Shown here: one piece after another, positions 6,725 through 62,928 of the stretch
Layout of the letters: each line of letters starts with the position of its first letter
Position numbering within the stretch: position 1 is the stretch's first letter
From: Callorhinchus milii
Lineage: Eukaryota
Assembly: GCF_018977255.1 (NCBI RefSeq)
Contig: NW_024704743.1
Span: 19,470,001-19,534,000 of the forward strand
Reading direction: 5' to 3'
DNA length: 64,000 nucleotides
Notes under the pieces: generated by a model
What the model was told of the DNA's origin: nothing
What the model saw: only the letters and a program-made list of their open reading frames with translations
Database searches by the model: none
Translations under genes and position numbers: made by a program

Positions 6725-7650
6725 AGTCTGACACTTGCTGAAACACATCACCATGATTAAGAGTATCTAAACCAAGCTGAGATTTCTGTGCACCTACACA
6801 TGCATATTCCAGGGTAGATTGTCTCTGGAATGCGCACTCTCTCCCTGGAGGACTCATCCTGTTTACCTAATTCTGGAAAGTAATTAGGCATTGGTTGGCC
6901 ATAGCTAAGGCTTGGGGACCCCAGAGTGTGCGTTGGGGTACAGCTGGAGTCTAACCAAGTAAAACCGATTTGTGGAGTCCTGTAGCTACAACAACAACAA
7001 CAACAAAGTTACATTTGTATAGCTCCTTTCATGTCGGGAGGACATCCCAAGGCGCTGGAACAGACAGATCAGTTGTTAGAGCACTAGGGTTTGATTCCCG
7101 GCAGGGAAAAATGTTGGGTGAGTTTCCTTACTCCTCACACCTCTGCAATAAGTAGAAACCCAGCTGTTAGTCGATTGGCGGATCACTTTTCCAGGGATAA
7201 TAATCCCTTTTAAAAAATTTGATCAACTCAATCCACAACTGTGCAGCGCCTTGGGACGTCCTCCCGACGTGAAAGGCGCTCTATAAATGGAATTTTGTTG
7301 TTGTTGTTGTTGTTGACTGTTTGTGGGACACTGCTGTGCACAATTGGTTGCCAAGTTGCACCCACAAAATATACAGCCAATTAACATCTAGAAGACGTGA
7401 AAAGCATTATATCAAACGCAGGGATTATTATTATTATTATTATTATTATTATAGCTTGCCATTGATATTGCTGTCTGGCAAGCTTTCCTGCTGCTTGTCC
7501 AGCTAGGACCACCCTATCCATTAGCCTTTGATTTGCAGGGTTAACAAGAGTAGGCATGGGATTATTCCATGACCCAGTGACTGGTCTGCCCTTTCAAGTC
7601 CTGCTGATGAACCAGGCCATCTGTGCTGTCATCAGCAGTGCCCAGGAATA
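6725..7650. repeat. Unclassified ~430-bp interspersed repeat, split by a SINE insertion at ~6973-7451
   Basis: 6725-6968 plus 7451-7650 are the reverse complement of the uninterrupted copy at 30730-31160 (e.g. aaggcttggggaccccagagt / actctggggtccccaagcctt). Confidence 0.8.
6974..7451 (+). mobile_element. SINE family A carrying two nested short L2 3'-tail insertions
   Basis: Head ggagtcctgtagct interrupted by an antisense (CAA)n tail at ~6988-7065; second sense tail at ~7243-7315 ending (TTG)n flanked by duplicated actgt; SINE ends in (TTA)n. Confidence 0.8.
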
Positions 7651-10173
7651 CTGCAGACCTGCCTGGCTCAGAAACCGGACTACCAAGACCGCCGCAGAGC
7701 ACTGGCTCGATTCCGACATTCCATTGCCAGGCATGTCACCTTGGAGCCAGTAAAGCTCCATGGACACCATCGCCTACCTCCCCCCCACACCCAGGAGAAT
7801 AATCACTAGTTGATAAACATCTGGATAGTAGGAGAATAGGTGTTATATGCATGAAAAATAAATTGACCTGACAGAGTTGCTCAGTATTAGAACGTACAGA
7901 ATAAAGGAAGCATACATCAGGTGGACTCAGAACCCAGGTGATTTTCAGTATAAGCACATCAATTGTCATGTGTTTTTAATCTTAAACTTCCAGGGTCTGG
8001 ATAATGAAAAACAGACTAATAGTTGCAAATCATATCATGTAAATCGTTGACTTGAGTGTCTTCTCTGACATCAGGTTGAATGAACCTGTGTCTGAACAGA
8101 TCCATGTGTCCACAGGGTTAGTGCTAAACTTTACAGATCACAAGTAATTCGGCGTTTATGAGCTCTGGCAGGCCTTGCCTTCTCTAACCACTATTTCCAA
8201 ACAGCGATGATGTAAGGTTATTTTGTAATCTCTGTGCAAACACCTTCTAATTCTCTCACAGAAATAGAAAAGAGCCAGCAACATCCACTGGACAGTGCCT
8301 GCAGTTTGCTGAAACTCTCCTCACTTTGAATGAAACTGCTTCTATAGTTATAGCGGACAAGCTACTAAAGAATATTATCACCTATATCTGGAGTTTCCAA
8401 ACCATAAAGGTGTCCTAATCTAATGCCTAACTGTTGTGCTATGGTGTAGGGTTCTTATGTTTAGATCACTATTATAAGAACATTATGCAGGAGTTTTCAT
8501 CAAACCATCTGCTCCCATTCTTAAACAACTTAAAGACCTCAAGAGAAAAGTTCACACAACTCAAGACAACAACTTACATTTGTATAATCCCCTTAATGGT
8601 GGAGTGGAGGGGAAGGGGGAACTTTAGAAGGCTGGAGCCAGCTGAGCAAGGAGCTAAGTAGAGAAGTGGGGTGTAAGCAGGTTGAAGCGGTGCTAGGGTA
8701 TGAAGTGATTTGTAAGTGAGTGTGAGGATTTTGAAATTAACATAATAATGTGCTGTCTTTAAGCCTCTCATCCACCCACCTTAACTATGAATACTGTATA
8801 GCTAGCTGCCTGCCCTTGGAGCTTCAATTGTGCAAGACGAAGGGATAGACAAAGACTTATTGGTGCAGACAGGGCTGGATTGGAGAGTGGGTCAGCTGCT
8901 TTCAGAGAAGCAAACTCCGAAATAATGAGAAAGTATAGAAATAGGTGTCACAGCTGAACCAAAGCAATTCATGCAAAAGCAGTAAGTGAGATGTTCCGCA
9001 GTGCAAAAGAAAATAGGACAAATTCATTTAACACAGATGAGATATAGGAAAAGCCATATGGAAGGCTGACAGATTTTGTGAGTGTCTCTGATGGGGGTGT
9101 GAATGTGGACATCTCACTGCCTTTTCTTGTGCTCTGAAGTTCTTGTAAAAATTGATCGTCTGAAGTGGATCCTTGTATAATCTCTAAAACGGGTTGGGTG
9201 GAGGGGGAGCGGGAATAACTAAGGCAGCCAGCACTATGCTGTATGCTGTATGTAGAAGTACATACATTGCATTGTCTAATATCAGGATTTTTTTTTAAAA
9301 AGCAGTAAGAAAGTAGCTCTTTTTCTATACTTCATGTTTTTCTAGCAATTGGAAATGTCAGGTCACATGAACCGTGCCAAATATTGAAAGATGAACTGTA
9401 ATTATTCTGCATTGCAACAATTTTCCATTGCTACGATATGAGAAAATTACAGTTATGTTATCGAAATAATAAGATAAACGATAAAGACAAATAATTAAGA
9501 TAAATGTAGATCACTGGAAGCATCAGTTTGTTAAGCAATGAGGATTTTTTCACAATAACAACAACTTGTATTTATATTGCGCCCTTCACATGGACTAGTG
9601 TCTCAGAGCACTTAACAGTGATGAAGCTTGATGCTGATTCACTTAACAATGATGAAGCTTGATTCTGTTTGACCGTGCCTAAAAAGGAGAGGTAACTATA
9701 GGCACGGGCAAACAGAAAGATCTTCAGGTGCAATCTGAGGATGGGCAATCAGGAAGCAAGGTAGATATATTAAGGCAGAAAGTTCCAGAGTTTCAGGGTA
9801 GAGTGGCTGAAAGCACGGCTACTGATGGTGGAGTAGAGGGGGTGATGGACATGCAGAAGGCCAGAGCCCGCTGAGCAAAGGGAGCAGATAGAGTAAATGA
9901 GGTTTGACCAGATTCAAGAGGTAGGGAGATGCTAGAGCAATCATAGATCACAAGATGAATGAAGAAGACTATCCGGCGTATTTGATCTCATCCTTCCAAA
10001 ATTCCCACCTCACCATCACAACATTTCTTAATTGAGTTCAATGCCCTGGCCTTAATAACCTTTCCTGATAATGCATTCCTGATGTTAATCATCCCATAAA
10101 GAAATACTTCCTGGTGTCTGTCCTGAAATTGCTCTTTTCTTCCCTGATTCTGTACCCTCTTGTTCTGCTGCTT

Positions 10174-11050
10174 CTATCAGCTTGTCTGGCAGACATCAGG
10201 ATCTGGATGAGTGCAAACTTCCTGCAGCTGAATGTGGGCAAGACAGAAACTATACTCTTTGGCTCCCATCAACGTCTTCACCCCTGCGGATCTGAACTGC
10301 TCAACCTCCCTGGGTTCTCCCTCACACTAACCGAACCAGTGCACAATCTAGACATCCAGTTCGACCACCAGCTCACCCACATCCAGTCCCCAACCAGGAC
10401 CGCTTTCCTCCATCTCTGACACATTGCCCGTTTCGGACTGTACCTTACCCCAAAATGCAGCCGAAACCCTCGTGCACGCGTTTGTCACCTCCCACCTGGA
10501 TTATTATTCCTCGCTGGTCTCCCCAGCTCCACTATTCAAAAATTCAGTTCATTCAGAACTCTGCCACTCACTTACTGACCCGGACCAAACTCCATTCTCC
10601 CATCTTACTAGCTCTGGCCAGGATCCACTGGCTCCCCATCACCGAACGGATCAACTTCAGGTCCTCGCACGCGTATTCAAATCCATTCACTCTCTGATAC
10701 CTCCCTACCTCTCCAACCTCCTGACTCCCCAATCCACCACCCGGCGCCTCTGCTTGACTGACATCGACCTCCTGCCTTGTCCCTTGCACTCTCCATTCCA
10801 CCATTGGAGGTTGCACTTTCAGCTACTATGCCCCCAAAATTTGGAACACTCTCCCTCAATCCTTCCACCTTGCCCCCTCTCTTCCCTCTTTCAAGTCTTG
10901 CCTTAAAACCTTCCTTTTCGACTGTGCTTACGATCACCTCTCCCCCTCCACCCCCCACCGCCAGCTCGGAGTCAGGTTCTGTCACCATTAAGCGCTCCGA
11001 GACGCTACCCTGCGTGGAGGGCGCTATTATAAAAGTCGTTGTTGTCGTCG
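10174..11050 (+). mobile_element. 5'-truncated L2 LINE (ORF2 C-terminus, 3'UTR, tail), frameshifted
   Basis: SACLADIRIWMSANFLQLNVGKTETILFGS, AETLVHAFVTSHLDYY, LARIHWLPITERINF motifs spread over three frames; ends agcgctccgagacgc…gggcgctattataaaagtcgttgttg. Confidence 0.9.
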
Positions 11051-11740: not shown

Positions 11741-12342
11741 TGTTGGATGTTGGGGAGAGGAGGCATCTTTATAGTCTGCTCTATGGGGAAAAAAGAAACC
11801 CTTCAGGGAGTGCAGTTGTTCAATATGTTCACTGTCTCCTGTTCATTCTCTTTTTCAACCTTCGTTGAATCTCCTTTTGGGATTTTGCCTTTTCTGGTGA
11901 TTCTGTTTCTGCAATATTACTGAACACTTTCTTTGGCGTTGTCATTTGCATTTGCTACTTCCAGCATAACTCTGGCCAGTTCTCTCTGGGCTTCCCTGAT
12001 CTCTTGCGTTAAGCCCTATCTGAGCGGTTTCTTGTATTCGGGTCCCAAACTGCCGCAAATATACAGTCAATTCACTTTACAGTGTGTTCCGGTGAAGCGC
12101 TTTGGGACGTCCTCCCGACGTGAAAAGCGCTATATCAAATGCAAGGATTAGTATTGTTACTATCGAAAAGAAAACGTTGGTACAGAATTACAATGATCGA
12201 TGTTGAAATCCTGCATTGGTGTGATACCATCTTCCTCCTTTCTGGAAGACTGTTGGGATGACACGCTGGATCGATGGAAAAGCCAGATGCCAGGCAGGGA
12301 GCCAAATTGCCCAAGAATGTTGACTCGGGCAACACTTAACGT

Positions 12343-14586: not shown

Positions 14587-14589
14587 CTG

Positions 14590-15727: not shown

Positions 15728-15758
<31 letters not shown>

Positions 15759-16125: not shown

Positions 16126-16231
16126 GTAAGAGCTAATTTATTATTATTATTATTGCACACATTATTCCTATTGATCCCTCCTGGAGCTCACCAGTTGTGA
16201 TTTCTATGCTGCTGCTTTTTGCTTTTCTTTC

Positions 16232-16243
16232 TATATATATATG

Positions 16244-16277
<34 letters not shown>

Positions 16278-16282
16278 TATAT
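16232..16282. repeat. (TA)n microsatellite
   Basis: Directly visible. Confidence 0.95.
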
Positions 16283-18595: not shown

Positions 18596-18629
<34 letters not shown>

Positions 18630-18688
18630 AGGAGGGGAGAGAGAGAGAGAGGGGGGGAGAGAGAGAGAGAGAGGGGGAGAGGGAGAGA
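17724..18688. repeat. GA-rich polypurine repeat with recurring GGGGTGAAGGGAGAGAGAG units
   Basis: Directly visible. Confidence 0.95.
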
Positions 18689-18839
18689 CTGCTGTTCTGT
18701 TGTGATGTGACAGTGAGTGTGGAGGCAGTGAAGAGCTGTAGAGAAGCCTCGGGAGTTATCCCCAAATCAAAGCCACAGGACTCCCAAAGCCTTGAGATGT
18801 GCTCTGTTTAATGGTTTTTGCTCACATTGACCCCCTCTC

Positions 18840-18893
<54 letters not shown>

Positions 18894-19099
18894 CCCTCTC
18901 TTCTTTTTGGGGAACACATTTATTCCAGTGCCTCCTGTATCTAACACAGGGTCAAACTCTGCACTGAGTTGCTTCTCATCAATCATCTTTGCAGCGAACC
19001 AACCGTGACAGATAAACTTGTCCCTAATAAAACCTCCCTCGCTCTTTCTCCCTGATATGTGTCATTGCTCCCATCAGACTGGTTTGGTTTATTATATTA

Positions 19100-24944: not shown

Positions 24945-25140
24945 AACAAATTATAAAAAACAATTATAAATTGGTCATTTTCAATCTGCGACTGTGGGAC
25001 ACTGCTGTGCGCAATTGGCTGCCGCGTTCGCCCACAAATATACAGTCAATTCACTTTACAGTGTGTTCTGTGAAGCGCTTTGGGACGTCCTCCCGACGTG
25101 AAAAGCGCTATATCAAATGCAAGGATTATTATTATTAAGG
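24945..25140 (+). mobile_element. 5'-truncated young SINE family A
   Basis: Near-identical to the 3' half of copies at 42039 and 50076, with full tail. Confidence 0.9.
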
Positions 25141-25720: not shown

Positions 25721-26226
25721 TTTTTTATTCCTACATCACTGGTCAGAATGAACACCTCAGTATTCCCATTAACAGGGTGTACTATCTGTTTTCTTATGTA
25801 CCTGTGATACAAGTGACATTTTTCAAGTGTGAGTGTAGACAGTGAGTGTTTGCAGGAAGCTTAATTGTGGTTATTTATTACACCCACATTTATTAACCTA
25901 CACCATCCAACCTACATACTTGCATTTCACAGCAGGAGTCAGTGGAACAGAATCAGGAGAATGACGTGTGCCATTTCCTTCTCTAATCAAGACATCCTGG
26001 TCCCGATTTCTGTTCTTTGTTTTTTTTGGTCAGCCAGGTGTCTGACACATGCGGAAACCAATGCTTAAGAGTATCCAAACCAAACTGGGAATTCCATGCA
26101 TTCCGCCTTCATATGGAGATTCCTGGGATAGGTTTTTGGAATGGAATGTGTGCTCTCCTGGAATAAATTCAACTTTTTGGCTCAACATTTAAATTAAAAA
26201 AATTAAGACTAAACGTTCTCTTCTGT

Positions 26227-26533
26227 GGAGTCCTGTAGCTCAGTGGTTAAAGCACTCGCTTTGCAAGTGAGAGACCTGAGTTCCAGGCAGGGCGAAACCT
26301 TGGGCAAGTTTCCTTACTCCACACGCCTAATAATAATCCCTCCAAAACCAAAAACAATAATTAAGTGGTCATTTTCAATCCACGACTGTTTGTGGGACAT
26401 TGCTGTGCGCAATTGGCTGCCGCGTTCGCCCACAAATATACAGTCAATTCACTTTACAGTGTGTTCTGTGAAGCGCTTTGGGACGTCCTCCCGACATGAA
26501 AGGTGCTATATCAAATGCAAGGATTATTATTAT
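26227..26533 (+). mobile_element. Full-length young SINE family A (short form), tRNA-Ala(TGC)-like head
   Basis: ggagtcctgTAGCTCAGTGGttaaagcactcgctTTGCAagtgagagacctgagttc (A box, TGC anticodon loop, partial B box); L2-type tail with (TTA)n. Confidence 0.92.
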
Positions 26534-33247: not shown

Positions 33248-35742
33248 GAAAAAAAATGTAGTCTGGGGAGCAGTTTGAACATAATTCAAGATGATGTGGG
33301 AATACCTTAATGATCTGAAATCAAAGGAACCAATGCACATCAATATAACAGCTAGAGCTGTGAGAGATTCCAGTAAATAAGGATAAGATCAGTATGAGAA
33401 AAAGAGAGTTTAATTACTTCAGTGAGTGTTTTATCTGACATGCATCATGGAATTTATAATTTTGTTAACGATCGTTCAGCAGTGTTAAGAATTATTTATT
33501 CTTGAAAAGAAAATGGTCAGACTAGGCACTGCTAAATTCTTAATAATCAGTGATATATATGCTTTAAAAAATAAATGAATCTATTTCTGGGAACTTCAGA
33601 CATTGGTTCTACATGTAATTATGGATGGCATAAGGCATTAAATGGATGAGATATTTCAGACCACCTGAAAGTGAATTCAGCCTCAGGAAATTCCGCCAAA
33701 GATTTCTTCCTGTAATATTAATGTGTTTCAAAACATGTTTTATATTTACAGTCTCAAGGAACAGTTTGGTTGGAAAATGATTAGGGGCCGAAGGATTAAG
33801 ATTGGGGAGCATTTGGGAATTTATTAACCAGGCTGACATAAAGTCAAGGAGGTTTATGTTGACTTGGAGATGGAAGGCTTAGTTTGAGTAGGTTCCAATG
33901 TTATAATTTAGCTTTGATGTTCCAGCTTTGGCCCAACTTTCTCCATCTCTGATCTTGCTTCACTCTGATCCTGAACTCAATAATTTTCACACTGGATTGT
34001 AGATAGTAGTAGTACTTTGGTGCCTAGGGTTAGGGCATCAGGGAACAGAATGGCTCGAGTCATTTCAAAGAAGAATGTCTTTGAGGAGTCAATAGTAAAA
34101 TATTGTACTCTAGTGCTCAGGTTTTACAACTCCTGACACAGGCCTGGGTTCTGAGCCCCAAAGTTGATATCAGAATGCGAGACTTGCTAAATCTCTACCT
34201 AGGTTTGGATAGAGCTTTTAGTCATCAATCAAATCTCAAAACTTGTTGTAAGAGTTCAAACCATGGCTCAAGGGAGATGGTCTCTCATTAGATCTAGACA
34301 TAAACAGAGAACTTTGTAACATTCCTTCTCTATTCTAAGGGTCAATGAAGATTCCAGTGTAGTCTCCATATTCCCTGGATGGTGTATTCCATTACAGCTA
34401 ATCAATAGTCCAGCACATTTTTGCTAGTGAAGCTTGTTTTTGAATGTGCCCGCCCTCTCCTGCATGACAATGTGGATGTCCCACTGGGAGCTACAACCTC
34501 TGTTTAATTAGCATAAAATAAATTCTTATTGCACAAATTCTAGCATTGCTTCATCAACCATGCTCCAAAGAAGTGCAAAGCAATACATAAAGACATCTTC
34601 AACTGAGTACAGGCCTCTTCATGTCTTCTTCATGGGTGCAGACTTCATATATTGGGTATTGGTGTAAAGTGTTTATGTTGTATAGTCATGAATATTACGT
34701 CGTTGCCCAAGGATGATTTGGCTTCATTTGAGAAATATGATCATTAGAAATATCTGATAGGATTCTCAGAACCAGTTTATCATAGAGTGGTAATATCTGT
34801 TGGGAGAAATAATTTGATCCCTTAAGGCATAAGAGCCAATGTTACATTTTAATATTCATAAACAGTAGCTGCCAAAACTGCAAACTTTATTCATTTTATA
34901 AGCAGAGTGAAATTCATTTGGAAGAAACATTTATCGGAGTTCAATAGAAAGTCACCTCAGCTTCACCCACAATCTTTTAAGATAGAATATTTTTTAAAGT
35001 GAGAATTTCCCTGGCCCCTGGAGTCCTCCTCTTGTTTTTGTCCTGATATTTGTTTTTGTCTTGAATGTAAATTTTCTCTTGACTAACCACCTTTATGCCG
35101 TCAAATTTTGTGCAGACCCACTTTATCTAAATTTGGCACATGTCTCATAAATAAAGTTTAAAAACTTGGCTCAAGAGAGTTGATCTCCTAGTAGATCTAG
35201 ACACAATCAGAGAACTTTGTAATATTACTCCTATATCGCTTTTCCATCGGACAATGCTATTTTCCACTTAGCTGCATGGTTGCCATTTCTTTTGATTAAG
35301 TATAAGACTCAATGGTTTAATTCTTTAAGTGCTGAACTGTGATTTTGAACTGTTTCCTCGAGTGGCCTAAGCTTATACTAATGCTGTAATAAAATTCAAG
35401 ATAGGCGACAGATGGTTTGAATCTACTCAGTGATAACTAAACTGAGTTAATGCTACAAAATTGTTCAAATTACCTTTTGGTATGACCATAAAAATAACCC
35501 TTTGCTCTTTTTCTCTCTCTCTAGCCCTAATCTTGTTTCTCCTATCATTCATTGTGTTCTTTTGCCTGCTCTGTGTCATGCATTGGATATCCTCTCCAAT
35601 GTATGCTTTGTTGGAATATAGCTTAAAATCCTTTGAGCAAAATGAACTTTGTAAGCAAACCATATTTTTAAATTAATTAAAAATTCTTTTATGATTTTCA
35701 AAAAAAACTACCATTTTAGTATAGAGGAATTTGTATCTTAAA

Positions 35743-36905
35743 TCAACGAGTTGTTACTTCCCACGTTCGCACCTTCCTCTCCCACCACTCCCTTCACGAA
35801 CCCCTACAATCGGATTTCTGTGACGCCCACAGTACAGAAACAGCCCTGGTCAAAGTGATGAATGACATTCTGTCCAACTGCGACCAGGGCTCTCTCTGCC
35901 TTCTTGTACTCCTTGACTTTTCTACAGCCTTCAACAATGTTGACCACTCTATCCTCATCCACCTCCACTCCTCTCACCTCAACCTTCACGGCTCTGTCCT
36001 TGACTGGTTCAGATCATACCTCTCACATCGCTTCCGCTTCATCTCCACAAATGGTTTCTCCTCTAGCCCCCGCACCGTCTCGTGCGGCGATCCTCTGTTC
36101 TTGGTCCCCTCCTCTTCAATATCTACATGCTCCCTCTTGGTGGCACCATTCGCAGACATGGAGTCAACTTCCACATGTATGCTAATGACACCCAACTATA
36201 ATCTCTGCCTCCACTCTCGACTCCAGGACCACTGCTGTCCTAACAGAACGTCCTGGATGAGAGCTAATTTTCTTCAGTTGAACGTCAACAAGACCGAGGC
36301 CCTCCTAATTGGCTCCCGTCAGCACATCCTCAGTTCAGGTGCTGACAACATCACCATCCATGGTTACACACTCCAGCTTGCTAAGCCAGTCCTGAACCTT
36401 GGCATCTTGTTTGACCCTTAACTGTCCTTTGTACCCCACATCTGCACCATGACCCGCTCTGCCTTCCTCCGCAACATCGCCCGGCTCCGACACTGTCTCA
36501 CACCACAGGCCACCTAAACCCTCTATGCAAACTCATTGTTTGTCGGCCTCCCCAACTCCTCCCTTCATAGGCTGTAGATCATCCAGAACTCTGCAGCCCG
36601 TGTTCTCCCCCGTACCAGGCTCCATGATCCTATCACCCCCATCCTCGCCCAATTCCACTGGCTTCCCATCACACAGTGGATACAGATCAAAATCCTGATC
36701 CTCACCTTCAAAGCCATCCATGGTCTTGCTCCTCCCTACCTCTTCGACCGCACTTTCGATTTCCCTGCTTCCCCCCTTCCCTCCACCCTCCCGGACCCCA
36801 ACCACCAGCTTAGGTTCAAAATGCTGTCTGTCCAGCACTTTGGGACGGCCTCCTGAAGTGAAAGGTGCTTTACAAATGTAATTTGGGATTTTGCTGTTGC
36901 TGTTG
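35743..36905 (+). mobile_element. L2 LINE ORF2 RT fragment to 3' tail, decayed
   Basis: HSTETALVKVMNDIL…[26 protein letters not shown] (YADD-derived), WMRANFLQLNVNKTE; tail gcactttgggacggcctcctgaagtgaaaggtgct…ttgctgttgctgttg. Confidence 0.92.
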
Positions 36906-37560
36906 TATTACAGATGTCCGCTCTGGCCACTGGCTCACTGTGCAGTCTTTGTTCAACTGCTCACTTGATTTCCACAGAACCTTATAGTCAGTCAATTGTT
37001 TTATGCACATACAATACCTGACGTGAGAGACGATTACCAGTGTTGATTTCCACTTTACAGCTATTCTCTCTGTCTCAAAATAAAGCCTCAAACTATATGT
37101 TCTTAACCATCCAGTATCTCTCTTTCTGTTTGTCCGTCTCTAGATTGTCAGTTCAACTCCGTTGATAGCGTTCTCATCTGTCAGATTGTTGTGAGTTCAA
37201 ACAGCATATTAGGATTTTAAGATGATATTGGGCTGACATTCGAATGAAGTGCTAGGGGAATGCTCCATTGCCGTCAGTGTCAGCCTTCATCAGAAGACGT
37301 TAAACTGAAGCCTATCTGCCTATAATCTATGGACATTATAGATTCCATGATACTATTTCACAAGAGAAAGAGAAAGGTAATTCTTAGAATTACCCTAATG
37401 TTTCTGTGATTCAGATGCAGTTCTTTTGTGCTAGTAACCACATCAATTGGTATCAATTCCAATGAGCATAAGCAATGGTTTTACACCGCTTTGTTGGCAC
37501 TGTGCATCTCTGTTCCCTGCCCACCTGTTCCTCTATTCCGAGAACGTGATTCACTTATAA

Positions 37561-37923
37561 GAATAATAATCCTTGCATTTGTTATAGTGCTTTATCACGT
37601 CTTCGAGATGTCTCAAAGCACTTCACAGGAAATTCACTGTAAAGTGAATTGACTGTATATTTTATGGGCAAAATGTGGCACCAATTGCGCACAGCAGTAT
37701 CCCACAAACAGTCATGGATTGAATGACCAAATTATTTTGAAGAAATTATTACCTCCAGAAAAGCAATTCACCAATCGACTAACTACCGGGTTCCTAGTTA
37801 CTGCTAGGTAAACAGAGGCGTGTGGAATAAGGAAACTTGCCCAACGTTTCTCCCTGTATGGGAAGTGAACCCAGGTCCTCTCGCTTGCAAGGTGTGTGCT
37901 CTAACCACTAAGCTACAGGACCC
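37561..37923 (-). mobile_element. SINE family A (long form), full length
   Basis: …ctctaaccactaagctacaggacccc head; CORE-like segment; tail aataataatccttgcattt. Confidence 0.9.
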
Positions 37924-38719
37924 CTTATGCACGTATGCATAAAGACAGAGCTTACCACTCAATGCCTCCACTAAGTTACTTTCCATATGCCCCAGGAGAG
38001 TACTCATTGACTCCCCACAAACCTTCCAGCCGTTGTGCCATAGCCGTTGTGCTAAATCCAGTTGAAAGCAAGAACCAACTCATTACATTTGAGATATTGG
38101 TCCACATTACAATGTACATCCAGGTTTAACCCTTGCATGGAATTTACATACACTGAAATAGTGGTGAAATCTAATTAGTGGCAATTTTTCTATGTATTCC
38201 TTATTAAGTCACGCAATGGAAGACAATGGGAATTCTTCTCCGATCCGATATGCTCCAAGACAAGGGTCTCACAGATTTTACGGTGATGGTAGAAAAGACT
38301 TCGGGAAATTGTATGAGAATTTGCAATAACAGAGACATCTCAGGTTTCTCACAGCATCTCTGGTTCAACGAGGGATGTTATCATGCACATTTCAAAAAAT
38401 CTGCAAAAATAATAACAATAGTACTGCAATAATCCCCCTCTCCCTGGCTCGGCCCTGGGATCCATTACTGTAAAGCACTCTGAGATGCCGTCTGGCGTGG
38501 TGGGCGCTATATAAATCCAAGTTGTTGTTGTAATACTCTTTAGCATTTTTTTCTAAAATGTAGGGGTTCTACCTGCAGCTCAATTCCAATTATAAAAATA
38601 TTGATATCCCAAGAGTGATTACTGAGCAACAACAACAAACAGCAACAAATTACATTTATATAGTGCCTTTCACATCGGAAGAACAACCCAAGGCACTGGA
38701 CAGTTAAGGATTTGCAAGC

Positions 38720-39591: not shown

Positions 39592-40215
39592 GGAGTCCTG
39601 TAGCTTAGTGGTTACAGTACTCGCCTCGCAAGCAAGATGACCTGGGTTTGATTCCCAGGAGGGACGAAACCTTAGGCAAGTTTCCTTATGATAGCATCTT
39701 GATTCTGTAACTATAGCAGTAAGTTGTGGTTACAGAATCAAGGCAAGAACTGATTAGAATAACATAATAATGAGATCTAATTAATAGGTTAAATTAAATA
39801 ATGTTTTTAGTGTTGAATGGAACATCCTCCCGACGTGAAAGACGCTATACAAATGTAATTTTGTATTTGTACTGTATTGTATTGAATATTTAGTATAGAG
39901 TCCCATAGCATAGTTTCCTTACTCCACAAGCCTCTGTTCACCTAGCAGTAAGTAGGAACCTGGTTGTTAGGTAATTGGTGGATTGCTTTTCCAGGGGTAA
40001 TAATCCCTCCCAAAAACAAAAAAAATTAATAATTTGGTCACCCATTCCAAGACTGTTTGTGGGACACAATTGTGTGCAATTGACTGCCATGTTTCGCCTA
40101 CAAAATATTCACTTTACAGTATATTGCAGTATATTCTGTGAAACACTTTGAGAAATCTCAAAGATGTGATAAGGCGCTATATCAAATGCAAGAATTATTA
40201 TTATTATTATTATTA
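39592..40215 (+). mobile_element. SINE family A (long form) interrupted by a 223-bp insertion
   Basis: Head at 39592; AGTTTCCTTA duplicated at 39679-39688 and 39912-39921; SINE resumes and ends in (TTA)n. Confidence 0.85.
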
Positions 40216-41189: not shown

Positions 41190-42038
41190 TAATTTGTGAT
41201 ATTCGCAAAACAATTTGTAAATAGCAAATTCCTCAGGTATCTGTATATATGTCTCCAGAACTTGGATACTGATCTCAGTTTCCAATTCTGTGTAAAAGCT
41301 AAAGAGGTTCCAGGCATCTGGAACATCTGACCTGATATCCTGATGAACCATTTACAAATCCTTTTGCGAATCTCTCCAATTGTTAACCTTCATGAGAAGA
41401 TTTCTGTTTATAACGATCACATGAAGTAAATGATCAATTTTATTTGGACAATTATTGCTCAGGAGACCAGGAGAAACTCCTTCCTTTTCTTGACTACTGT
41501 TACAAGATCTTTAACATCCACCTTGGGACCTTGGGACATCTTACCTGAAAGATGGAAACTCTTGATAATTCACCATTCTCCCAGCACTGCATTGAAATGT
41601 CAGCTTAGACTATAGCATTAAATTTCCACCACAACGCTTCAACCCGCAAGTGGGTGTCAGCCCGCCTCAGTTGGTAGCATTTTTGTCTTATGCTAGAAGA
41701 TTGTAAGATCAGAAGGTTGGAGGTTCAAGCCTCATTTCAGGAATTTGAACTCTTAATCTAGGCTGTTCAGGTGGGCATTAAAGAAACCTTTGGCACTATT
41801 TGACCAGAAATCCCCCAGAAAAAAATATTTTTTGTTATTTGCTTCATGGTTATTTGTGTGCAGATTGGCTGCTGTGTTTGCTTACACATAGTCACATAAA
41901 TCTGCTATGAAGTTTTTGATGGAATAAGATACCACTCCAAATGAAAGGATTATTACTTATTATTAAGAAATGAAAACCTTTGAAGAAATGTTGGAAAAAC
42001 AAAAGCTGCTTGCAACAGCAAATGGTTTACAGAAGAGT

Positions 42039-42353
42039 GGAATCCTGTAGCTCAGCAGTTAGAGCACTCGCTTTGCAAGCGAGAGACCTGAGTTCAATTC
42101 CAGGCAGGTCAGGGCGAAACCTTGGGCAAGTTTCCTTACTCCACACGCCTAATAATAATCCCTCCAAAAACAATAATAAAATTGGTCATTTTCAATCTAC
42201 GACTGTCTGTGGGACATTGCTGTGCGCAATTGGCTGCCGCGTTCGCCCACAAATATTCAGTCAATTCACTTTACAGTGTGTTCTGTGAAGCGCTTTGGGA
42301 CGTCCTCCCGACGTGAAAAGCGCTATATCAAATGCAAGGACTATTATTATTAT
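42039..42353 (+). mobile_element. Full-length young SINE family A (short form)
   Basis: A box tagctcagcag, B box gagttcaattcc, intact CpGs, tail agcgctttgggacgtcctcccgacgtgaaaagcgctatatcaaatgcaagg. Confidence 0.93.
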
Positions 42354-42849
42354 AAGACTAGACTATGGAGATATTAAACAGGTACATGGCATGGATTCCT
42401 ATGGTGAAGATGATGAGGTTACCTTTGAGACCCAGGATGAGGTTTGGAAACAAATAATGAGACCCATTATAAGAAGGGAGAGACAATCTGGGGTACAATC
42501 TGTGAGGATCACAGTGGAGGGGAAGGTTGCACAGGAGGTAGCCAGACAAGCCATTGTAATAAGGAACTTAATAATAGCAACAATTTGCATTATGGTGTCC
42601 TTCACACAGAATAAAATCTGAGAGCACTGTAAATTAGTTTGTAGATAGTGAGGTGTATAAGATCATAATAAAAATAAAACTGCATGCTACTTCCCACGGA
42701 TAAAGGTAAGTGATATAAAAATAAGGGCAGAAGAGATAGTAAGAGGCGAAGGAGTAAATATATTTGTTGTTTTACATGTAGGGACAATGATATATTGGAT
42801 AAAAGATCAGCAGAGCTCAAGAAAGAAAATATGGGGTTTGTGAGCAGTT

Positions 42850-43080: not shown

Positions 43081-43199
43081 AAATTGGGAGTGCACAAGTG
43101 GGCAGAACTCTGAGCTTGTCAGTGCAGTGCATAGTTGCTTCCTGGCTCAGTTTGTCAGGGAGCCCAGACAAACTGCTCAGTTCTACTCAGTGACCTAGA

Positions 43200-43548
43200 C
43201 TTACCCGCCTATACCTTCCGTTCCTCTGGCTCCGGTCTGCTCCACATCCCCCGCCCCAACCGCCCTACCATCTGTGGCTGGGCCTTCAGCCTCTCAGCCC
43301 CTAGGCTCTGGATCTGCATTCCCCAGTGCCTTCACCTTGCTTCCTCCCTTTCCTCCTTCAAGGCCGGTCTCAAGACCTTTCTCTTTGACCGTGCCTTCAG
43401 CTCCCCTCTCGACTCTCTACCCCCTCCTCGCACCCTCCCCTCATCCTGACCATTTCCCCCCTGCTCGAGTCCTGACCCAACTGTCCAGCGCCTTGGGACG
43501 TCCTCCCGACGTGAAAGGCGCTCTATAAATGGAATCTTGTTGTTGTTG
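43200..43548 (+). mobile_element. Young L2 LINE 3' end
   Basis: …FRSSGSGLLHIPR…GWAFSLSAPRLW…SLSSFKAGLKTFLFDRAF (L2 ORF2 end), then tail agcgccttgggacgtcctcccgacgtgaaaggcgctctataaatgg…(TTG)n. Confidence 0.92.
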
Positions 43549-43789
43549 TAGACACGATTCTGGGAATAGAAATAGTATACCTCCCCCAGAATGTCTGAAT
43601 GCAATTGTACTGGCATGAAACAAACATTCTGACATTAACTCTTTCAATCTTTGGTTTGAATATGATACCCTTGTGTTCTAGTATTTTTGTTCAAGAATTA
43701 ATTGTTCACAATCTTTCTATTTTGAAGTTCTCCTTTGTATACCTGCTCATCCCATCATGCTGTTTGAAAAGGCCATTATTATTATGTGC

Positions 43790-44190: not shown

Positions 44191-46179
44191 ACAGATATGA
44201 GAACTTGGTTCTCATATAGTCCATGACCTGATGTCAACCATGTGCATTACAGTCTGCTAGTTTCCACCAGAAACCTGTTTTTGTCACAAGAAAAAAAACT
44301 CCTGCATTAAAATTCAGTGTCAGTTTTTGATTAAAAGACAATTGAGACTTATTGATTTATTGGGACTTGCTGTTGAAAAAATGCTGGTGTGTGGGACCTC
44401 TCTGCTGAGTTTATTTTATTTTGAAACAATTGTCCAGCATTTGACAGACACTCAAAATATTAACTACAGTATGTGTTTTGGGGGAAGGGGTGGGCTGGAA
44501 AAATCCAACCAAAAAAGTTTCATTTAACAAGTTAGAAGTTCCACCTAGGTCTCGATTTGCTGCTTTCCTAGAATTTCAGAGTGTGCAGAATTAGGCAAAT
44601 TATTGAATTCAGTCTTAACTTTAGAGCCAGGTTTCTGTAGTTCTTAAAAGGAATGTACAGAAAAACGGCTACAAAATTAATAATAATAATAATCCTTGCA
44701 TTTAACATTATCACGTCTTCGCGACATCTCAAAACGCTTCACTGTATATACTATAAAATTAATTGACTGTATATTTTGTGGGCAATATGCGTTTTTTGTT
44801 TCATGGCTGTTTTGTGGTATATTCCAATGTGAAAGGCGCTGTACCAAATGTAAGGATTATTGTTATTATTTTCATGTCGGGAGGGTGGCTTAAAGCGCTT
44901 CACATGATATACTGTAAAGTGTAGCACTGTATTTTTCCTTGGCAAAATCTTGAGTCCCTGGTTCAATTTGACTTGATTTCAATACAGTGAGGATGTAGAG
45001 CATAATATATTTGAAGCTCAGGAGAAGCAGGAGAGGACAATTCAGTGGAGAAATGACAAACATAACACTGATAAATTAGAAAAAGATAAGAAAAACAAGG
45101 CTTATTTTATTTTTGCAAACCATTTTATTAGACATTTCATACTCTCATTGTGTATGCAGGTAAGTTATCACCAATGCTCCACATAATAAGTTGTTCCATT
45201 GATGTAGACTTAACAAATGTTGAATGAAGCTCAATCCAAATTACTCGGCTGCTGGATTTAGGTTTTGTTCTTGAAATGCTTCATCCTCTGACTGTTAATT
45301 TGAAAGTTCGGTTTGTTTGACCAATCATTTGTTGACGTTATTTATGATGTGAGCTGAGGTCTGAATATAGACTAAGTAATAGGCACTTAAAGTGATGGAA
45401 AAAGAGAATGGTTTGCATACACTCTGCTCTGCAGTGCCTCCTCCATAGAATTTAATGCTGATTCCGCACTGCTCTACAGCTCACAGGAACTATACTGGGA
45501 ATATCAACATATTGTTTGTTCAGGCAAGCTTTGCTTACACGACTGCCATACTAGTATTTTTGCCTTTGGTCAATTGATAGATAGCTCATTCAACAAAAGC
45601 CAGAGCCAATTTTTCACACTTCCCTCAGCAACTCATTTGGGATCTGGCAATGTTTCAGAAGGATAGACATGTTTGGCACAGAAAACCTACTGCTTCTGAT
45701 CTGAGAGAGCCTGGTTCACTTTTTAATTGTGTGACTATTGACTACGGAGCAAGCACAGTATCAATCTGCTCAAGAATGGATCCTTTACGTTCACTTTACA
45801 ACAACAACAATTTTACATTTATTACAAAACCTTTCACGCTGGGAGGATGTCTCCAAGCTCTTCACACAGCTGACAGGGACAGCCCAAGCTTGGGGTGGAG
45901 AGGTGTGGGAGAGGGGAAAGGTGACCAAAAGCATAGTCAAAAAGAAAGATCTAAAGGTCGTTTTTAAAGCTGGGGAGGTGGTGAGGTGGAGGAACTGTTT
46001 TTAGCAACAAATAAACTGGACCTTTTACTGGAGCTGCTAGTGTGGAAACTGCAGATAGAAACCTTTCACTGTGAAGTGCATCTCCAGTTAATTTAATTTA
46101 TTTATATATATTCGTAAACACAATCTGTAAGAGAGATAGATTTTCTACTTTTAAAATATAATTGCTCTTCCCATCCTCT

Positions 46180-47590
46180 CCCAAGTTGCTGGAATGAATG
46201 AGTCGTGCCTTCCACCTTTGCTCCTTTCTCTACTAGCACTTCCTGCTGGAACCTCTCCAATGGCATTTGCTCCATGTCCACAGCGCCAAGACTGATCTGG
46301 CCAAGGTAGCCAATGACATTCTCACCATCTGCGACCTGGACTCTCTCTGCCTCCTTGTTGTCCGTGATCTCTCTGGCGCCTTTGACCCAGTCCACTATTC
46401 CTTCCTTCCCCACTATCTCACCTCCCTTCTACGGCCTTATGGTTCTGTTCTTTCCTGGTTTCACTCTTACCTATTCCAGTGTTATTTCTTCATCTTTTCC
46501 AATGATACCTCCTCCCACTCCCGGACAGTCACATGTGGTGTTCCTCAGGGCTCTATCCTCGGTCCTCTCCATTTCACCATCCATATGCTTCCACTTGGTG
46601 ATACCTTCTGCAGGTCTGGGGTTCATTTCCATATGTACGTGGGTAATGTGAAACTCTATTTCTTTGCTTCTACCTTTGACCCTAGGACCCTGCCGTTCTG
46701 ATCAACTGCCTGTCAGACATCAAGCGCTGGATGAACTCTAACTTCCTTCAGTTGAATGTTGACAAGACAGAGGTTCTCCTACTTGGCTCCTGTCAATGCC
46801 TTCTTACCTTGGGCGCTGTCTGCATTGACCTACATGGATGCTCAGTCCACCTCACAAAGCTAATGTGGAACCTTAGTATCTTATTTGACTCTCAACTGCC
46901 TTTCAACAACAACAACAACAACAAAACATTTACATTTCTATTGCACCTTTCACATTGGGAGGACATTCCAAAGACTTTCAAGCCCCACGTCTGGTTTATT
47001 ACTCACTCACTTTCCCTCACCTCTGTAACATTGCCCACCTCTCCCAATACCTCTTCAGGCGATATTCCCAGTAGAGTTCCTGTGAGCTGAACAGCAATGC
47101 AGACTCAGCATTAAATTCTATAGAGGAAGGGAAGAGTTTATGCAGATTATTCTCTTGACTATTCCAATGCCCTGCTTGCTGAACTCCCCAGCTCCTTCTA
47201 GGCAAGTTGCAGATCATTCAGATTTCTGCAGCCCAAATCCTCTCCCACACCAAGATCAGTGAGCCTATCGCCCCCATCCTCTCTCAGTGATTCAAACTCA
47301 AGATCCTCCTCGCAGAGAAATCCCTCCACAGCCTTGCCCCAACATCCCTCCGTTACCTACTGTGATTCTGCATTCCCAGCTGCCCCTACGCTCAGTGAAC
47401 ACTGACCTACTTTATGTCTCCCATCCAAACTCCTCCACTATCAGTGGTGAATTTTCAACTATTCTGCCTCTGCTCTCTGGAACTCCATTCCAAAGCCCCT
47501 CTGCCTCACCCCTGCTTGTTCCACTTAAAGCCAGTCTTAAGACTTAACTTTACAACTGCATTTTTGGTTATATCCCCCCCCCATCTGTTA
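46180..47590 (+). mobile_element. L2 LINE RT fragment, heavily decayed
   Basis: HSAKTDLAKVANDIL…DLSGAFDPVHY…GVPQGSILGPLHFTIHMLPLG, MNSNFLQLNVDKTEVLLLG; antisense tail insertion at 46907-46974. Confidence 0.9.
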
Positions 47591-49198: not shown

Positions 49199-50075
49199 CA
49201 AACTGGAAGTCATAATTGGAAGTCTAAAATTCTGTTACACTTGTTTGTATTTAGTGACATTGACAGGACAGAATTGGCAGAGGCCTGGAACTGAATGACC
49301 TTTAGGCAGGAATTTAGACATTGTATAGTTGTCTTAAAAATAGGATCAGGACCATTCAATATAACACCATTCAGCCATTTGAGACGTCGCAAAGACTTGA
49401 TAACAACAACAACAACAAGATTGCATTTATAGAGCGCCTTTCACGTCGGGAGGACATCCCAAGGTGCTGGATATAAGATGTTATATCAAAAGCAAGGATT
49501 ATTATTATTATACTCCTCCAATTTAAATTTATCTATCTTGCCAATTTTGTTTATTGTTTTAAATCATTGTATATATATATATCATTGTGTATATATATAG
49601 TTATCATTAAAGGTGTATATAAATAATAAGCAACATCACCAACATAAGAGTATTCAAGATAACTTTTGTTATTTGGGTTATAAAGAAAGTACAAATCTAT
49701 TTTTTTCAACAAATGTTCCAATTTATCAATGATATGGTTGTAGAATTGTCGCTTGCTAAGTTGAAATATACACAATGTAAAAATGAAAACTGTATATTTT
49801 TGATGATTTATGAGGGAGATATTCTGTCTGGGACACAAAATTTTATTTATATAGCGTTTTAGAGCATCCATAATATGACATTCAGTCTTCAGTCTTAACT
49901 TTGAAGTTGTCTTGTTTGTAGATCTCAATGGAACTTAAGGAAAAAATAGCTTAAAAAATAAGTCTGTATTCAACAACTTGGCAAAGTAAATCTAGAACCA
50001 GGAGGAATACATTCTACCCATGTATGAAACGTATTGGTTCTAGTGAGCTCAGAAACACAAAGACTTTCAAAAATA

Positions 50076-50390
50076 TCCTGTAGCTCAGTGGTTAGAGCAC
50101 TCACTTTGCAAGCGAGAGACCTGAGTTCAATTCCCGGCAGGGCGAAACCTTGGGCAAGTTTCCTTACTCCACACGCCTAATAATAATCTCTCCAAAAACC
50201 AAAAACAATAATAAATTGGTCATTTTCAATCTACGACTGTTTGTGGGACATTGCTGTGCGCAATTGGCTGCCGCGTTCGCCCACAAATATACAGTCAATT
50301 CACTTTACAGTGTGTTCTGTGAAGCGCTTTGGGACGTCCTCCCGACGTGAAAGGCGCTATATCAAATGCAAGGATTATTATTATTATTAT
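50076..50390 (+). mobile_element. Full-length young SINE family A (short form)
   Basis: tcctgTAGCTCAGTGGttagagcactcactTTGCAagcgagagacctGAGTTCAATTCCcgg; full tail and (TTA)n. Confidence 0.93.
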
Positions 50391-50959: not shown

Positions 50960-51305
50960 ATTCCTTGGCACCCCCTATCTCTCTGACCTCTCTCCCCACA
51001 GCATTACCTGCTGCCTCCACTCTACAGGGTCTGTCCTCCTCCGTGTCCCCCGAATCGTCCACTCCATAATCAGCGGCCGTGCTTTTAGCCACTACGCCCC
51101 CAAACTTTGGAACTCCCTCCCTCAATCCCTTTGCCTCTCCCCCTCCTTCCCCATCTTCAGGTCAGGCTTGAAGATCCTTCTCTTCGACTGTGCCTACGGT
51201 CACCTTTCCCCTCCCACTGGCTCAGCTCAGGCTCCACTATTGTTAAGCGCTCTGAGATGCTGCTGGCGTGGAGGGCGCTATATAAATGCAAGTTGTTGTT
51301 GTTGT
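50960..51305 (+). mobile_element. L2 LINE 3' end (second tail type)
   Basis: GRAFSHYAPKLWNSLPQSL…FRSGLKILLF; tail agcgctctgagatgctgctggcgtggagggcgctatataaatgcaagttgttg. Confidence 0.9.
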
Positions 51306-51637
51306 ACTAGATCATGTCAAAATACTTTGTAGTGTTTTCTGTAAAGGCTGTGTATTCGAACAAACCCAATAATATCCCACAAACAGCCACGATGTGAATG
51401 ACCATTTAAAAAAAAAATCAGGTAATTGTTGGCCGGGATACCAGGAGGGACAAACTCCCTTCTCTTTTCACCCAGGGCCCATGTAATCTTTCACATCCAC
51501 CTGTACAGGCAGAAAAGCCTTCAATTTAACGTCTCATCTGAAGGACGACACTTCCGACAATAAACCGCTCAACCAGCTTTGCATTCATGTGTCACTCTAG
51601 TCCATCAGCTTAAAGACCTGACATGGGGCTTGAACCC

Positions 51638-52050
51638 ACAACAACAACAAAATGACATTTGTATAGCACTTTTCACGTCTGGCAGACATCCCAAGGGGCT
51701 GGACCCGAGCTGGGGGTTGTGATCAGGGAGGGTGGAGGGCAGCGGTGGGTGGGGGGGGGGGGTGAAGGAGGGTGATTGAAGGTACAGTTGAAGAGGAGGA
51801 TCTTGAGAGCAGTCCTGAAGGAGGGAAGGGGTGAGGCGGAGGGAATGCGGGATTGAGTTTTAGAGGGTGGGGGCAGAGTGGGTGAAGGTCCGCTCACCAA
51901 TGGTGGGGCAGGCGAGGCGAGGGACGTGAAGCAGGTCGGAGAATGCTGAGAGGAGGGAGTGGGCAGGTTGGTAAGGGGTTAGGAGATTGCAGAGGTAGGG
52001 GGGAGCAAGGCTATGGAGGGCTTTGAAAGTGAGGATCAGGATCTTGAACT
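51638..52050 (-). mobile_element. L2 LINE 3' end inserted into a family B SINE
   Basis: Minus ORF FKILILTFKALHSLAPPYLCNLL; (CAA)n tail begins at the SINE sequence gaacccacaac. Confidence 0.88.
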
Positions 52051-62387: not shown

Positions 62388-62706
62388 AATAATAATAATA
62401 ATCCTTGCATTTGATATAGCACTTTTCACGTCGGTAGGACATCCCAAAGCGCTTCACAGAACACACTGTAAAGTGAATTGACTGTATATTTGTGGGCGAA
62501 CGCGGCAGCCAATTGAGCACAGCAATGCCCCACAAACAGACGTAGAATGAAAATGACCAATTTATTATTGTTTTTGGTTTTGGAGGGATTATTATTTATT
62601 AGGCGTGTGGAGTAAGGAAACTTGCCCAAGGTTTCGTCCTGCCTGGAATTGAACTCAGGTCTCTCACTTGCAAAGCGAGTGTTCTAACCACTGAGCTACA
62701 GGACTT
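62388..62706 (-). mobile_element. Full-length young SINE family A (short form)
   Basis: Reverse complement nearly identical to 50076-50390. Confidence 0.92.
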
Positions 62707-62928
62707 CGCAATAATATTAATCCTTGCATTTCGTATAGCGCCTTTCACATCAGGAGTACATCTCAAAGCGCTTCACATGATACGCAGTAAAGTGCAGTGA
62801 CTGTGTGTTTTGTAGGCGAAAAAATAGAAAGCATGGAATAAAGTGTGAGACAGCTACATGAGCTATACAGAAGCTGCTAGGACAAATATATCAGGAGCCT
62901 CAAGTATAGACAGCCTGATGGTGTAATG

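What the first reader, a model, noticed from the sequence alone, without database searches (positions are those of the whole stretch)
43487..43522. LINE/SINE 3' recognition stem-loop with compensatory base-pair changes visible inside the window
Seen: the L2 end at 43487 (also 7245) reads AGCGCCTT-ggg-ACGTC-ctccc-GACGT-ga-AAGGCGCT, an 8-bp outer stem plus a 5-bp inner stem. Young SINE-A copies (42289, ~25074, ~12096) read AGCGCTTT…AAAGCGCT, so one pair changes C-G to U-A. The copy at 50323 has the U-G wobble intermediate. A second L2 tail type (51246, 10991, ~38473) has outer AGCGCTC(T)…AGGGCGCT and inner ACGC/GCGT, changing further pairs while keeping the pairing. Established: L2-clade LINEs recognise a 3' stem-loop and mobilise SINEs sharing it (eel UnaL2/UnaSINE1, zebrafish ZfL2). 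Inference: the window holds a matched, recently active L2/SINE pair whose RNA structure is conserved across at least three tail variants. The terminal repeat differs: (TTG)n in LINE versus (TTA)n in SINE.
Basis: partly seen in the sequence, partly recalled or inferred. Interest (0 to 1): 0.7.

Follow-up and report, generated by a model that had tools for sequence, protein, structure and literature searches.

The report
Shared L2/SINE tail hairpin, chimaera
The hairpin is real and is the known 3' handle by which L2 jumping genes pick out their own RNA and also copy a partner short repeat; this partnership has been described in the elephant shark, so the finding is ordinary apart from a hint that the younger short repeat changed the hairpin's loop to match one L2 type.

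Summary
The stem-loop is present as described (9 pattern matches, 0 by chance; 55 tail copies in the window). The DNA is elephant-shark-like. SINE-A is most likely CmiSINE (SINE2-1_CM), whose tail-sharing with an L2 was reported in 2007 and 2017; compensatory changes in L2-type tail hairpins were reported in 2016.

Corrections:
- U·G at the flagged pair is the commonest state in three of five tail groups, so C-G (one L2 type) and U-A (young SINE) are probably two one-sided changes from a wobble ancestor.
- Covariation inside the window is weak: two real two-sided changes, both in one L2 lineage; the rest is largely CpG decay.
- No intact L2 is present, and 7245 is a ~70-nt tail inside an old SINE, so recent activity is not shown.

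Outside support is strong: in 39 clusters of related tails from metagenome contigs the flagged pair is kept in 34 (16 expected), including A-U and G-C. The young SINE's upper hairpin equals that of L2 type a (20/20) while its flanks follow older SINEs, which suggests loop exchange. The scan noted similar LINE-tail hairpins in other genomes.

The parts
43201..43449 (+). 5'-truncated L2 (type a): C-terminal remnant of ORF2, stop codon 43447-43449
   Evidence: tblastn with fish LINE ORF2 proteins to their last residues; C-terminal profile E 1e-12; stop position
43487..43522 (+). Tail hairpin of L2 type a: outer stem 43487-43494/43515-43522, 3x2 internal loop (GGG/GA), inner stem 43498-43502/43508-43512, loop CTCCC
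43523..43549 (+). Conserved linker (43523-43536) and (TTG)4 terminal repeat
   Evidence: linker shared by window and metagenome tails
7239..7316 (+). Tail-only L2a insertion (~70-78 nt) inside an old long-form SINE; hairpin 7245-7280 identical to 43487
   Evidence: 97% over 72 nt to 43478-43549, no upstream L2 match
35729..36882 (+). Longest L2 remnant: broken RT and part of the C-terminal region, followed by a type-a tail (hairpin 36834-36869)
   Evidence: Pfam RVT_1 E 7e-08; best hits C. milii RT proteins
42038..42353 (+). Young short-form SINE (probable SINE2-1_CM): tRNA-Ala-like head 42042-42111, body, hairpin 42289-42324 with U-A at pair 6, (ATT)n end
50075..50387 (+). Young SINE copy with U.G at pair 6 (hairpin 50323-50358)
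26225..26533 (+). Young SINE copy with U.G at pair 6 (hairpin 26472-26507)
62389..62703 (-). Young SINE copy with U-A at pair 6 (hairpin 62418-62453)
24956..25137 (+). 5'-truncated young SINE, U-A (hairpin 25074-25109)
12053..12159 (+). 5'-truncated young SINE, U-A (hairpin 12096-12131)
50976..51306 (+). L2 type b remnant: ORF2 C-terminus, hairpin 51246-51279 (pair 6 U.G, pair 7 C-G, inner pair 4 C-G), (GTT)n
10084..11049 (+). L2 type b remnant, hairpin 10991-11025
38474..38532 (+). Short L2 type b tail, hairpin 38474-38508 with two broken outer pairs
37555..37920 (-). Old long-form SINE with the ~60-nt body segment that the young form lacks and a different loop (TCGAA type, 3x3 internal loop); hairpin 37586-37622
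62713..62820 (-). Tail of a third SINE group (probably SacSINE1-CM; GAG internal loop, loop CTCCY, U.G at pair 6); hairpin 62737-62772
   Evidence: the family name is inferred from Luchetti 2017 and recalled Deu-SINE features, not from a consensus comparison

Best explanation
This is the 3' recognition tail of stringent-type L2 LINEs and of the tRNA-Ala SINEs that parasitise them in a chimaera genome (elephant shark or close relative). In the RNA, an outer stem, an internal loop acting as a hinge and an inner stem present a 5-nt loop to the ORF2 tail-binding region: the stem is recognised by shape, the loop gives specificity, and reverse transcription starts in the short terminal repeat (mechanism taken from eel and zebrafish L2; inferred here). 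Because only pairing matters in the stem, pair 6 drifts through U.G: L2 type a fixed C-G, the young SINE mostly U-A, and L2 type b switched two further pairs to C-G. The young SINE shares the whole upper hairpin with L2 type a, which is therefore its likely mobiliser. Shown: sequences, families, predicted fold, covariation of pair 6 in distant relatives. Inferred: binding, partner choice, direction of change.
For: 55 tail copies, 0 hits in 3 shuffles. Tails follow ORF2 C-terminal remnants in 3 of 14 type-a and 4 of 9 type-b tails tested by profile. Best RT hits are C. milii proteins; one of them, 74% identical over 117 aa to the window RT remnant, has the Pro-Trp...Arg...Glu..Trp spacing of the L2 tail-binding region. 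SINE head is tRNA-Ala-like, as in CmiSINEs. SINE and L2a agree at 42 of 46 positions; Venkatesh 2007 gives 41 of 46 for the major elephant-shark SINE and LINE. With pairs 6-8 left free in the search pattern, pair 6 is kept in 34 of 39 metagenome clusters (16.3 expected, 0 of 20000 shuffles; A-U 10, C-G 10, U-A 6, U.G 4, G-C 3, G.U 1) and in 14 of 15 clusters with an ORF2 match (6.1 expected). In four runs of this SINE family the partner base is A or G, both pairing with U (G 13.5-36.7%), and no T>C row appears at 42294. Stem swaps are tolerated and loop swaps are not in ZfL2 assays.
Against: No binding or mobilisation data exist for this element. RNAalifold predicts no structure on 37 window copies; on that set the number of pairs with a two-sided change is no higher than in shuffles (6 vs 6.5). 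Pairs 7 and 8 covary weakly or not at all in the metagenome set (25 vs 19.5, p 0.02; 20 vs 18.6, p 0.32). The cluster shuffles ignore relatedness, and some off-register column pairs also score (8x6' mutual information p 0.001). Single-copy fold z-scores are modest. Luchetti reports only 78.6% SINE/L2-2_CM tail similarity, so their L2-2_CM may not be type a. L2 versus CR1 was not tested with a tree.
Confidence: 0.85

Rival explanations
1. Loop exchange: the young SINE descends from the old long-form SINE but took over only the upper hairpin from L2 type a (or from the SacSINE-like group) by template switching or gene conversion, which gave it a new active partner and its later burst. This adds to the best explanation; it does not replace it.
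For: Young versus old SINE consensus: 8 differences in 21 columns inside the upper hairpin, 12 in 128 outside (Fisher p 0.002, interval chosen after the fact). Upper hairpin 20/20 with L2a, while the flanking segments match the old SINE at 25 of 26 positions and L2a at 21 of 26. The unpaired G in GGG is shared by L2a (13 of 14) and young SINE (6 of 6) against A in the other three groups. Old-loop forms also appear as loose ends in runs X8 and X18.
Against: Only 6 young and 9 old copies entered the consensus comparison. The SacSINE-like group differs from the young hairpin by one clear change plus CpG-type differences, so an unsampled SINE lineage may simply have kept that loop while the old long-form lineage changed its own; direction is not fixed. 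Luchetti already proposes whole 3'-end exchange with SacSINE1-CM.
Confidence: 0.3
2. The stem is inherited by descent and the variants inside this genome are neutral transitions; the apparent compensation in the window is chance plus CpG decay, and the SINE's mobiliser is another L2 not sampled here.
For: All window changes are transitions passing through U.G; 14 of 24 two-sided cells are at CpG pairs (10 expected by independent decay); the remaining 10 cells belong to one lineage (L2b), two events at most. One L2a copy (51700) has a broken C.A at pair 6. SINE flanks and end repeat differ from L2a.
Against: Pair 6 shows transversion swaps that keep pairing across distant clusters. Five tail groups keep the outer stem while loops differ. 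Identity of loop and internal loop between young SINE and L2a.
Confidence: 0.12
3. The inverted repeat matters mainly as DNA (integration, 5' truncation or host processing into small RNAs) and not as an ORF2 binding site.
For: About 8 of 14 type-a tails start within ~13 nt of the stem or inside it, judged by eye. Luchetti reports miRNA precursors resembling these SINEs, though in head and body.
Against: U.G pairs are the commonest state of pair 6 in three groups, typical of RNA; RNA binding is shown for eel and zebrafish L2 tails; position just before the terminal repeat.
Confidence: 0.03

Closest known systems
CmiSINE (SINE2-1_CM, SINE2B-1_CM) and SacSINE1-CM with L2-2_CM, Callorhinchus milii (Luchetti 2017, PMC5499810; Venkatesh 2007, PMC1845163; listed with partner CR1-2_CM in Ohshima 2013, PMC3747384)
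   Same: tRNA-Ala head, 3' end shared with a LINE tail, very high copy number, several SINE families on one tail; 42 of 46 here against 41 of 46 in the 2007 paper.
   Different: Luchetti's main text has no hit for stem, hairpin or compensatory (supplements not readable). It does not separate tail types by loop. Its 78.6% figure is lower than the match to type a.
Eel UnaL2/UnaSINE1-2 and zebrafish ZfL2-1/ZfL2-2 tails (Nomura 2006, PMC1636434; Hayashi 2014, PMC4176376)
   Same: Lower stem, flexible internal region, upper stem, 5-nt loop, short terminal repeat; stems similar and loops variable among L2-clade elements.
   Different: Loop CUCCC, not GGAUA; 3x2 purine-rich internal loop, not a bulged C with U-U; trinucleotide repeats that differ between LINE and SINE; no experiments on this family.
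L2-related tails of BivaCORE-SINE2, L2-31_ACar, AmnSINE1, LmeSINE1b, MIR_Aves1, SINE2-6_SP (Nishihara 2016, PMC4824008, Fig. 5C-D legend and text)
   Same: L2-type tail hairpin with compensatory changes between LINE and SINE across distant animals.
   Different: Drawn for single consensus pairs; the passages seen give no count of pair covariation over many families.

Membership tests
CmiSINE (SINE2-1_CM/SINE2B-1_CM) | tRNA-Ala-derived head | tested here: met
   ARAGORN tRNA-Ala-like heads, including 42042-42111; Rfam tRNA hits
CmiSINE (SINE2-1_CM/SINE2B-1_CM) | CORE conserved domain in the body | not tested
   Resemblance to CORE is recalled only; no CORE consensus was available from a tool
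CmiSINE (SINE2-1_CM/SINE2B-1_CM) | 3' end homologous to an L2 tail | tested here: met
   42 of 46 with the L2a tail
CmiSINE (SINE2-1_CM/SINE2B-1_CM) | Very high copy number in a holocephalan genome | tested here: met
   86,149 contigs of run X1 laid on one 331-nt copy; best RT hits C. milii. The species itself is coded
CmiSINE (SINE2-1_CM/SINE2B-1_CM) | Identity to the Repbase consensus; which form is 2-1 and which 2B-1 | not testable with these tools
   No Repbase; supplements of PMC5499810 not readable
L2-clade LINE | ORF2 with non-LTR reverse transcriptase upstream of the tail | tested here: met
   RVT_1 at 35720-36418 and 46237-46698; the first is followed by a type-a tail
L2-clade LINE | Conserved tail-binding region (cTBR) between EN and RT | tested here: inconclusive
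   No window remnant reaches it; the residue spacing is present in C. milii relative P0006 and in 23 of 32 long relatives
L2-clade LINE | RT phylogeny within L2 rather than CR1 | not tested
   No labelled L2 or CR1 references were fetched; papers name the partner L2-2_CM or CR1-2_CM
Stringent-type LINE/SINE 3' tail | Two-part stem-loop followed by a short tandem repeat | tested here: met
Stringent-type LINE/SINE 3' tail | Stem pairing conserved by covariation | tested here: met
   Pair 6 across 39 outside clusters; weak inside the window; pairs 1-5 were fixed by the pattern and so not tested there
Stringent-type LINE/SINE 3' tail | Hairpin required for ORF2 binding and mobilisation in trans | not testable with these tools
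   needs binding or retrotransposition assay

The most novel reading that the evidence does not exclude
The young chimaera SINE changed partner by replacing only the ~20-nt upper hairpin (internal loop and loop, the specificity determinant) with that of L2 type a, keeping its own outer stem, linker and (ATT)n end. That would be a natural test of the bipartite model (stem general, loop specific) and a finer form of partner switching than whole-tail exchange. I did not find it described in four paper searches; unseen supplements may cover it.
Probability: 0.3. Interest if true: 0.45.

Novelty: already known. Interest (0 to 1): 0.2.

Why it matters
As found, it annotates a published SINE/LINE partnership at the level of RNA structure and adds a count showing that one outer-stem pair covaries over many L2-like tails. 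It does not reveal a new system. If loop exchange holds, this genome offers natural loop and stem variants with which to test how L2 proteins choose their RNA and how a SINE outlives its partner.

Tried and rejected
- No whole genome is held for this window, so genome-wide subfamily consensuses could not be built.
- A fuzzy regular-expression scan timed out and was replaced by BLAST, Hamming and nhmmer scans.
- RNAalifold on 37 copies gave no structure. On 10 well-preserved copies that I picked it gave all 13 pairs; the picking is circular, so I give it little weight.
- Two-sided changes at CpG pairs were rejected as evidence: 14 seen, about 10 expected from independent decay.
- An alternative small hairpin using GRG and CYY around ACGT (positions 10 and 17 appear to covary) has probability about 0 in intact copies and appears only in one decayed copy: rejected.
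- 50323 as a rare transient: rejected.
- Rfam has no family for the tail; only tRNA hits.
- ARAGORN found no tRNA head in the 80 metagenome upstream pieces of at most 300 nt, so SINE status of those without an ORF2 match is open.
- Sequencing runs: no RNA holder listed on record; nothing is claimed about expression.
- Earlier scan notes near this place and by sequence: none.

Full report
Observation. A degenerate stem pattern finds 9 matches against 0.00 expected in 100 shuffles. A profile seeded from 10 tails finds 56 hits at E 0.05 or better and none in 3 block-shuffled windows; one hit was the antisense overlap of another and was dropped, leaving 55. ViennaRNA gives the 8-bp outer and 5-bp inner stem for 43487, 7245, 42289, 50323 and 51246, with z-scores of -1.2 to -2.1; 10991 and 38474 are weaker. 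On the bare hairpin the C-G, U-A and U.G forms fold alike at -20.1, -18.1 and -17.8 kcal/mol.

What the elements are. No genome is held. The RT remnant at 35720-36418 matches Pfam RVT_1 and its seven best hits are Callorhinchus milii proteins. The element ending at 43549 is a true LINE 3' end: 43156-43401 aligns with the last residues of fish ORF2 proteins and the frame stops at 43447-43449. No intact LINE is in the window; the longest remnants are 35729-36775 and 46207-46991. The copy at 7245 is only a tail inside an old SINE. SINE-A has a tRNA-Ala-like head and is extremely abundant: 86,149 contigs of run X1 lie on one copy.

Five tail groups. Of the 55 tails I sorted 52 by eye into five groups; 3 stayed unassigned. 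L2a (14): GGG/GA internal loop, loop CTCCC, (GTT)n. L2b (8): GAG, other loops, (GTT)n. Young SINE (6): GGG/GA, loop CTCCC, (ATT)n. Old long-form SINE (13): GAG, loop TCGAA or TAGAA, often a 3x3 internal loop; it has a ~60-nt body segment that the young form lacks. A third SINE group (11): GAG, loop CTCCY; probably SacSINE1-CM, a label that rests on the paper and on recall.

The flagged pair. Pair 6 is C-G in 7 and U.G in 4 of 14 L2a; U-A in 4 and U.G in 2 of 6 young SINEs; U.G in 5 and U-A in 3 of 13, and U.G in 7 and U-A in 2 of 11 old SINEs; U.G in 6 and U-A in 2 of 8 L2b. Three of the four L2a U.G rows may be cut inside the stem. U.G is thus the commonest state in three groups, and the simplest reading is a wobble ancestor fixed as C-G in L2a and as U-A in the young SINE (inference). 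In contigs at least 88% like 42289, the partner base is G in 19.4, 13.5, 36.7 and 26.5% of depth in X1, X5, X8 and X18, and no T>C row is listed at 42294; the tool warns that some differences were not counted in X1 and X18, and the reference itself carries A. X18 is labelled as another organism, so the U-A form is not confined to one species label.

Covariation inside the window is weak. On 37 of the 55 copies (the 18 least alignable left out by eye) 83.1% of cells pair against 81.1% shuffled (3 of 500), cells with two-sided change are 24 against 14.7 (2 of 500), but pairs with such a change are 6 against 6.5 (415 of 500). RNAalifold predicts nothing on this set. Fourteen of the 24 cells are at CpG pairs, where independent decay predicts about 10. 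The other ten are outer pair 7 and inner pair 4, U-A to C-G, all in L2b rows: two events at most. Dead copies mutate without regard to structure, so only family-level changes count.

Covariation outside is strong for that pair. I scanned metagenome contigs with a pattern that fixes the first five pairs and the linker and leaves pairs 6 onward free. It returned 80 stretches, possibly a cap; chance is under 1 per 1e11 bases. They fall into 39 clusters, 26 with a tandem repeat of 10 nt or more after the linker; 33 loci in 15 clusters match an ORF2 C-terminal profile at E 0.01 or better. Pair 6 is kept in 34 of 39 (16.3 expected; 0 of 20000 shuffles): A-U 10, C-G 10, U-A 6, U.G 4, G-C 3, G.U 1. 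It holds in 14 of 15 ORF2-linked clusters (6.1 expected) and 26 of 31 after further merging (13.0 expected). Pair 7 is marginal (25 vs 19.5, p 0.02) and pair 8 is not supported (20 vs 18.6). Shuffles ignore relatedness, and a few off-register column pairs score too (best: 8x6' mutual information p 0.001; pairing 6x8' p 0.01), but far below 6x6'. The hosts of these contigs are unknown.

Partner and age. The young SINE equals L2a over the upper hairpin (20/20) and L2b at 10/20; one copy pair agrees at 42 of 46 positions. Its flanks follow the old SINE (25 of 26) more than L2a (21 of 26). Differences between young and old SINE cluster in the upper hairpin: 8 in 21 columns against 12 in 128 (p 0.002, chosen after the fact; 6 and 9 copies). 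This suggests loop exchange, but the third SINE group is nearly as good a source and the direction is open. Five young copies differ pairwise by 2.0-5.9% (the shortest copy left out). On Luchetti's clock of about 1e-3 per site per million years that is roughly 10-30 million years (inference): young for the family, but no proof of present activity. Upstream of the tail, 43487 is only 68% like the L2a copy at 51638-51941.

Mechanism. In eel and zebrafish L2 the tail has a stem split by a flexible internal region and a terminal repeat where reverse transcription starts; stems are similar and loops variable across the clade (PMC1636434, parts 1-3 of 5 read). Stem swaps are tolerated, loop swaps and broken stems are not, and binding maps between EN and RT (PMC4176376, abstract, first half of Results, Discussion). 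A C. milii relative, P0006, 74% identical over 117 aa to the window RT remnant, has the residue spacing of that region. I infer the same mechanism here; nothing was tested on this element. That LINE and SINE end in different repeats fits a need for repetition more than for sequence (recalled from Kajikawa and Okada 2002, not read).

What is known. Venkatesh 2007 reports that the major SINE and LINE of the elephant shark share 41 of 46 bases at their 3' ends (PMC1845163, passages). Ohshima 2013 tabulates SINE2-1_CM with CR1-2_CM (PMC3747384, passages). Luchetti 2017 describes the tRNA-Ala CORE SINEs, SacSINE1-CM and L2-2_CM sharing one tail and proposes 3'-end exchange (PMC5499810, parts 1-3 of 6 and a term search); its main text does not mention the hairpin, and its supplements could not be read and may bear on this. 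Nishihara 2016 shows L2-type tail stem-loops with compensatory changes between a lizard L2 and a bivalve SINE, beside AmnSINE1 and LmeSINE1b (PMC4824008, passages). Passages of PMC3472496, PMC2653535, PMC4758252, PMC11481361 and PMC5135761 added only the general principle. Four searches showed no paper on loop-only exchange or on this hairpin in chimaeras.

Verdict. A real, correctly spotted hairpin of a known kind, in a SINE/LINE pair that is already published. The reading of the base changes needs correction, recent activity is not shown, and the one open lead is loop exchange. Interest 0.2.

Noticed in passing
window 6994-7068 (-), 7239-7316 (+), 49406-49473 (-), 38638-38705 (-), 46915-46973 (-), 11399-11462 (-), 59830-59887 (-), 39819-39870 (+): About 8 of 14 type-a L2 tails are only 50-80 nt long and begin within ~13 nt of the stem or inside it (by eye); several sit inside older SINEs or L2 remnants, two in the same SINE at 6.97-7.45 kb. 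Possible 5' truncation at the hairpin.
   Followed up: partly
window 45799-45866 (-): An L2-like end (GTT repeat, upstream match to L2 3' region) with the SINE-type 5' flank and GAG internal loop but a CTCCC loop; it may represent an older L2 tail close to the SINE ancestor.
   Followed up: no
window 42309: The last loop base is T in 12-43% of depth in four runs, above the other four hairpin CpG sites (0.6-14.5%), suggesting a SINE subfamily with loop CTCCT.
   Followed up: partly
P0003 (C. milii predicted protein): A database RT protein reads through a type-a tail; its end resembles the translation of the window hairpin, so the gene model includes non-coding LINE tail.
   Followed up: partly
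L001-L080: The same outer stem and linker occur in metagenome contigs with many different end repeats (ATT, TTAC, GAAT, ATTGAC, TATTG and others); repeat unit varies freely while the linker is kept.
   Followed up: partly
window 12700-18900: GC-rich stretch of long low-complexity tracts (CA, GT, CT and C-rich arrays) that yields many spurious long frames; not examined further.
   Followed up: no
window 42100-42110 and 42033-42038 / 42354-42359: The 42289 SINE copy has a private 5-nt insertion after the tRNA head and a possible 6-nt target duplication with one mismatch.
   Followed up: no
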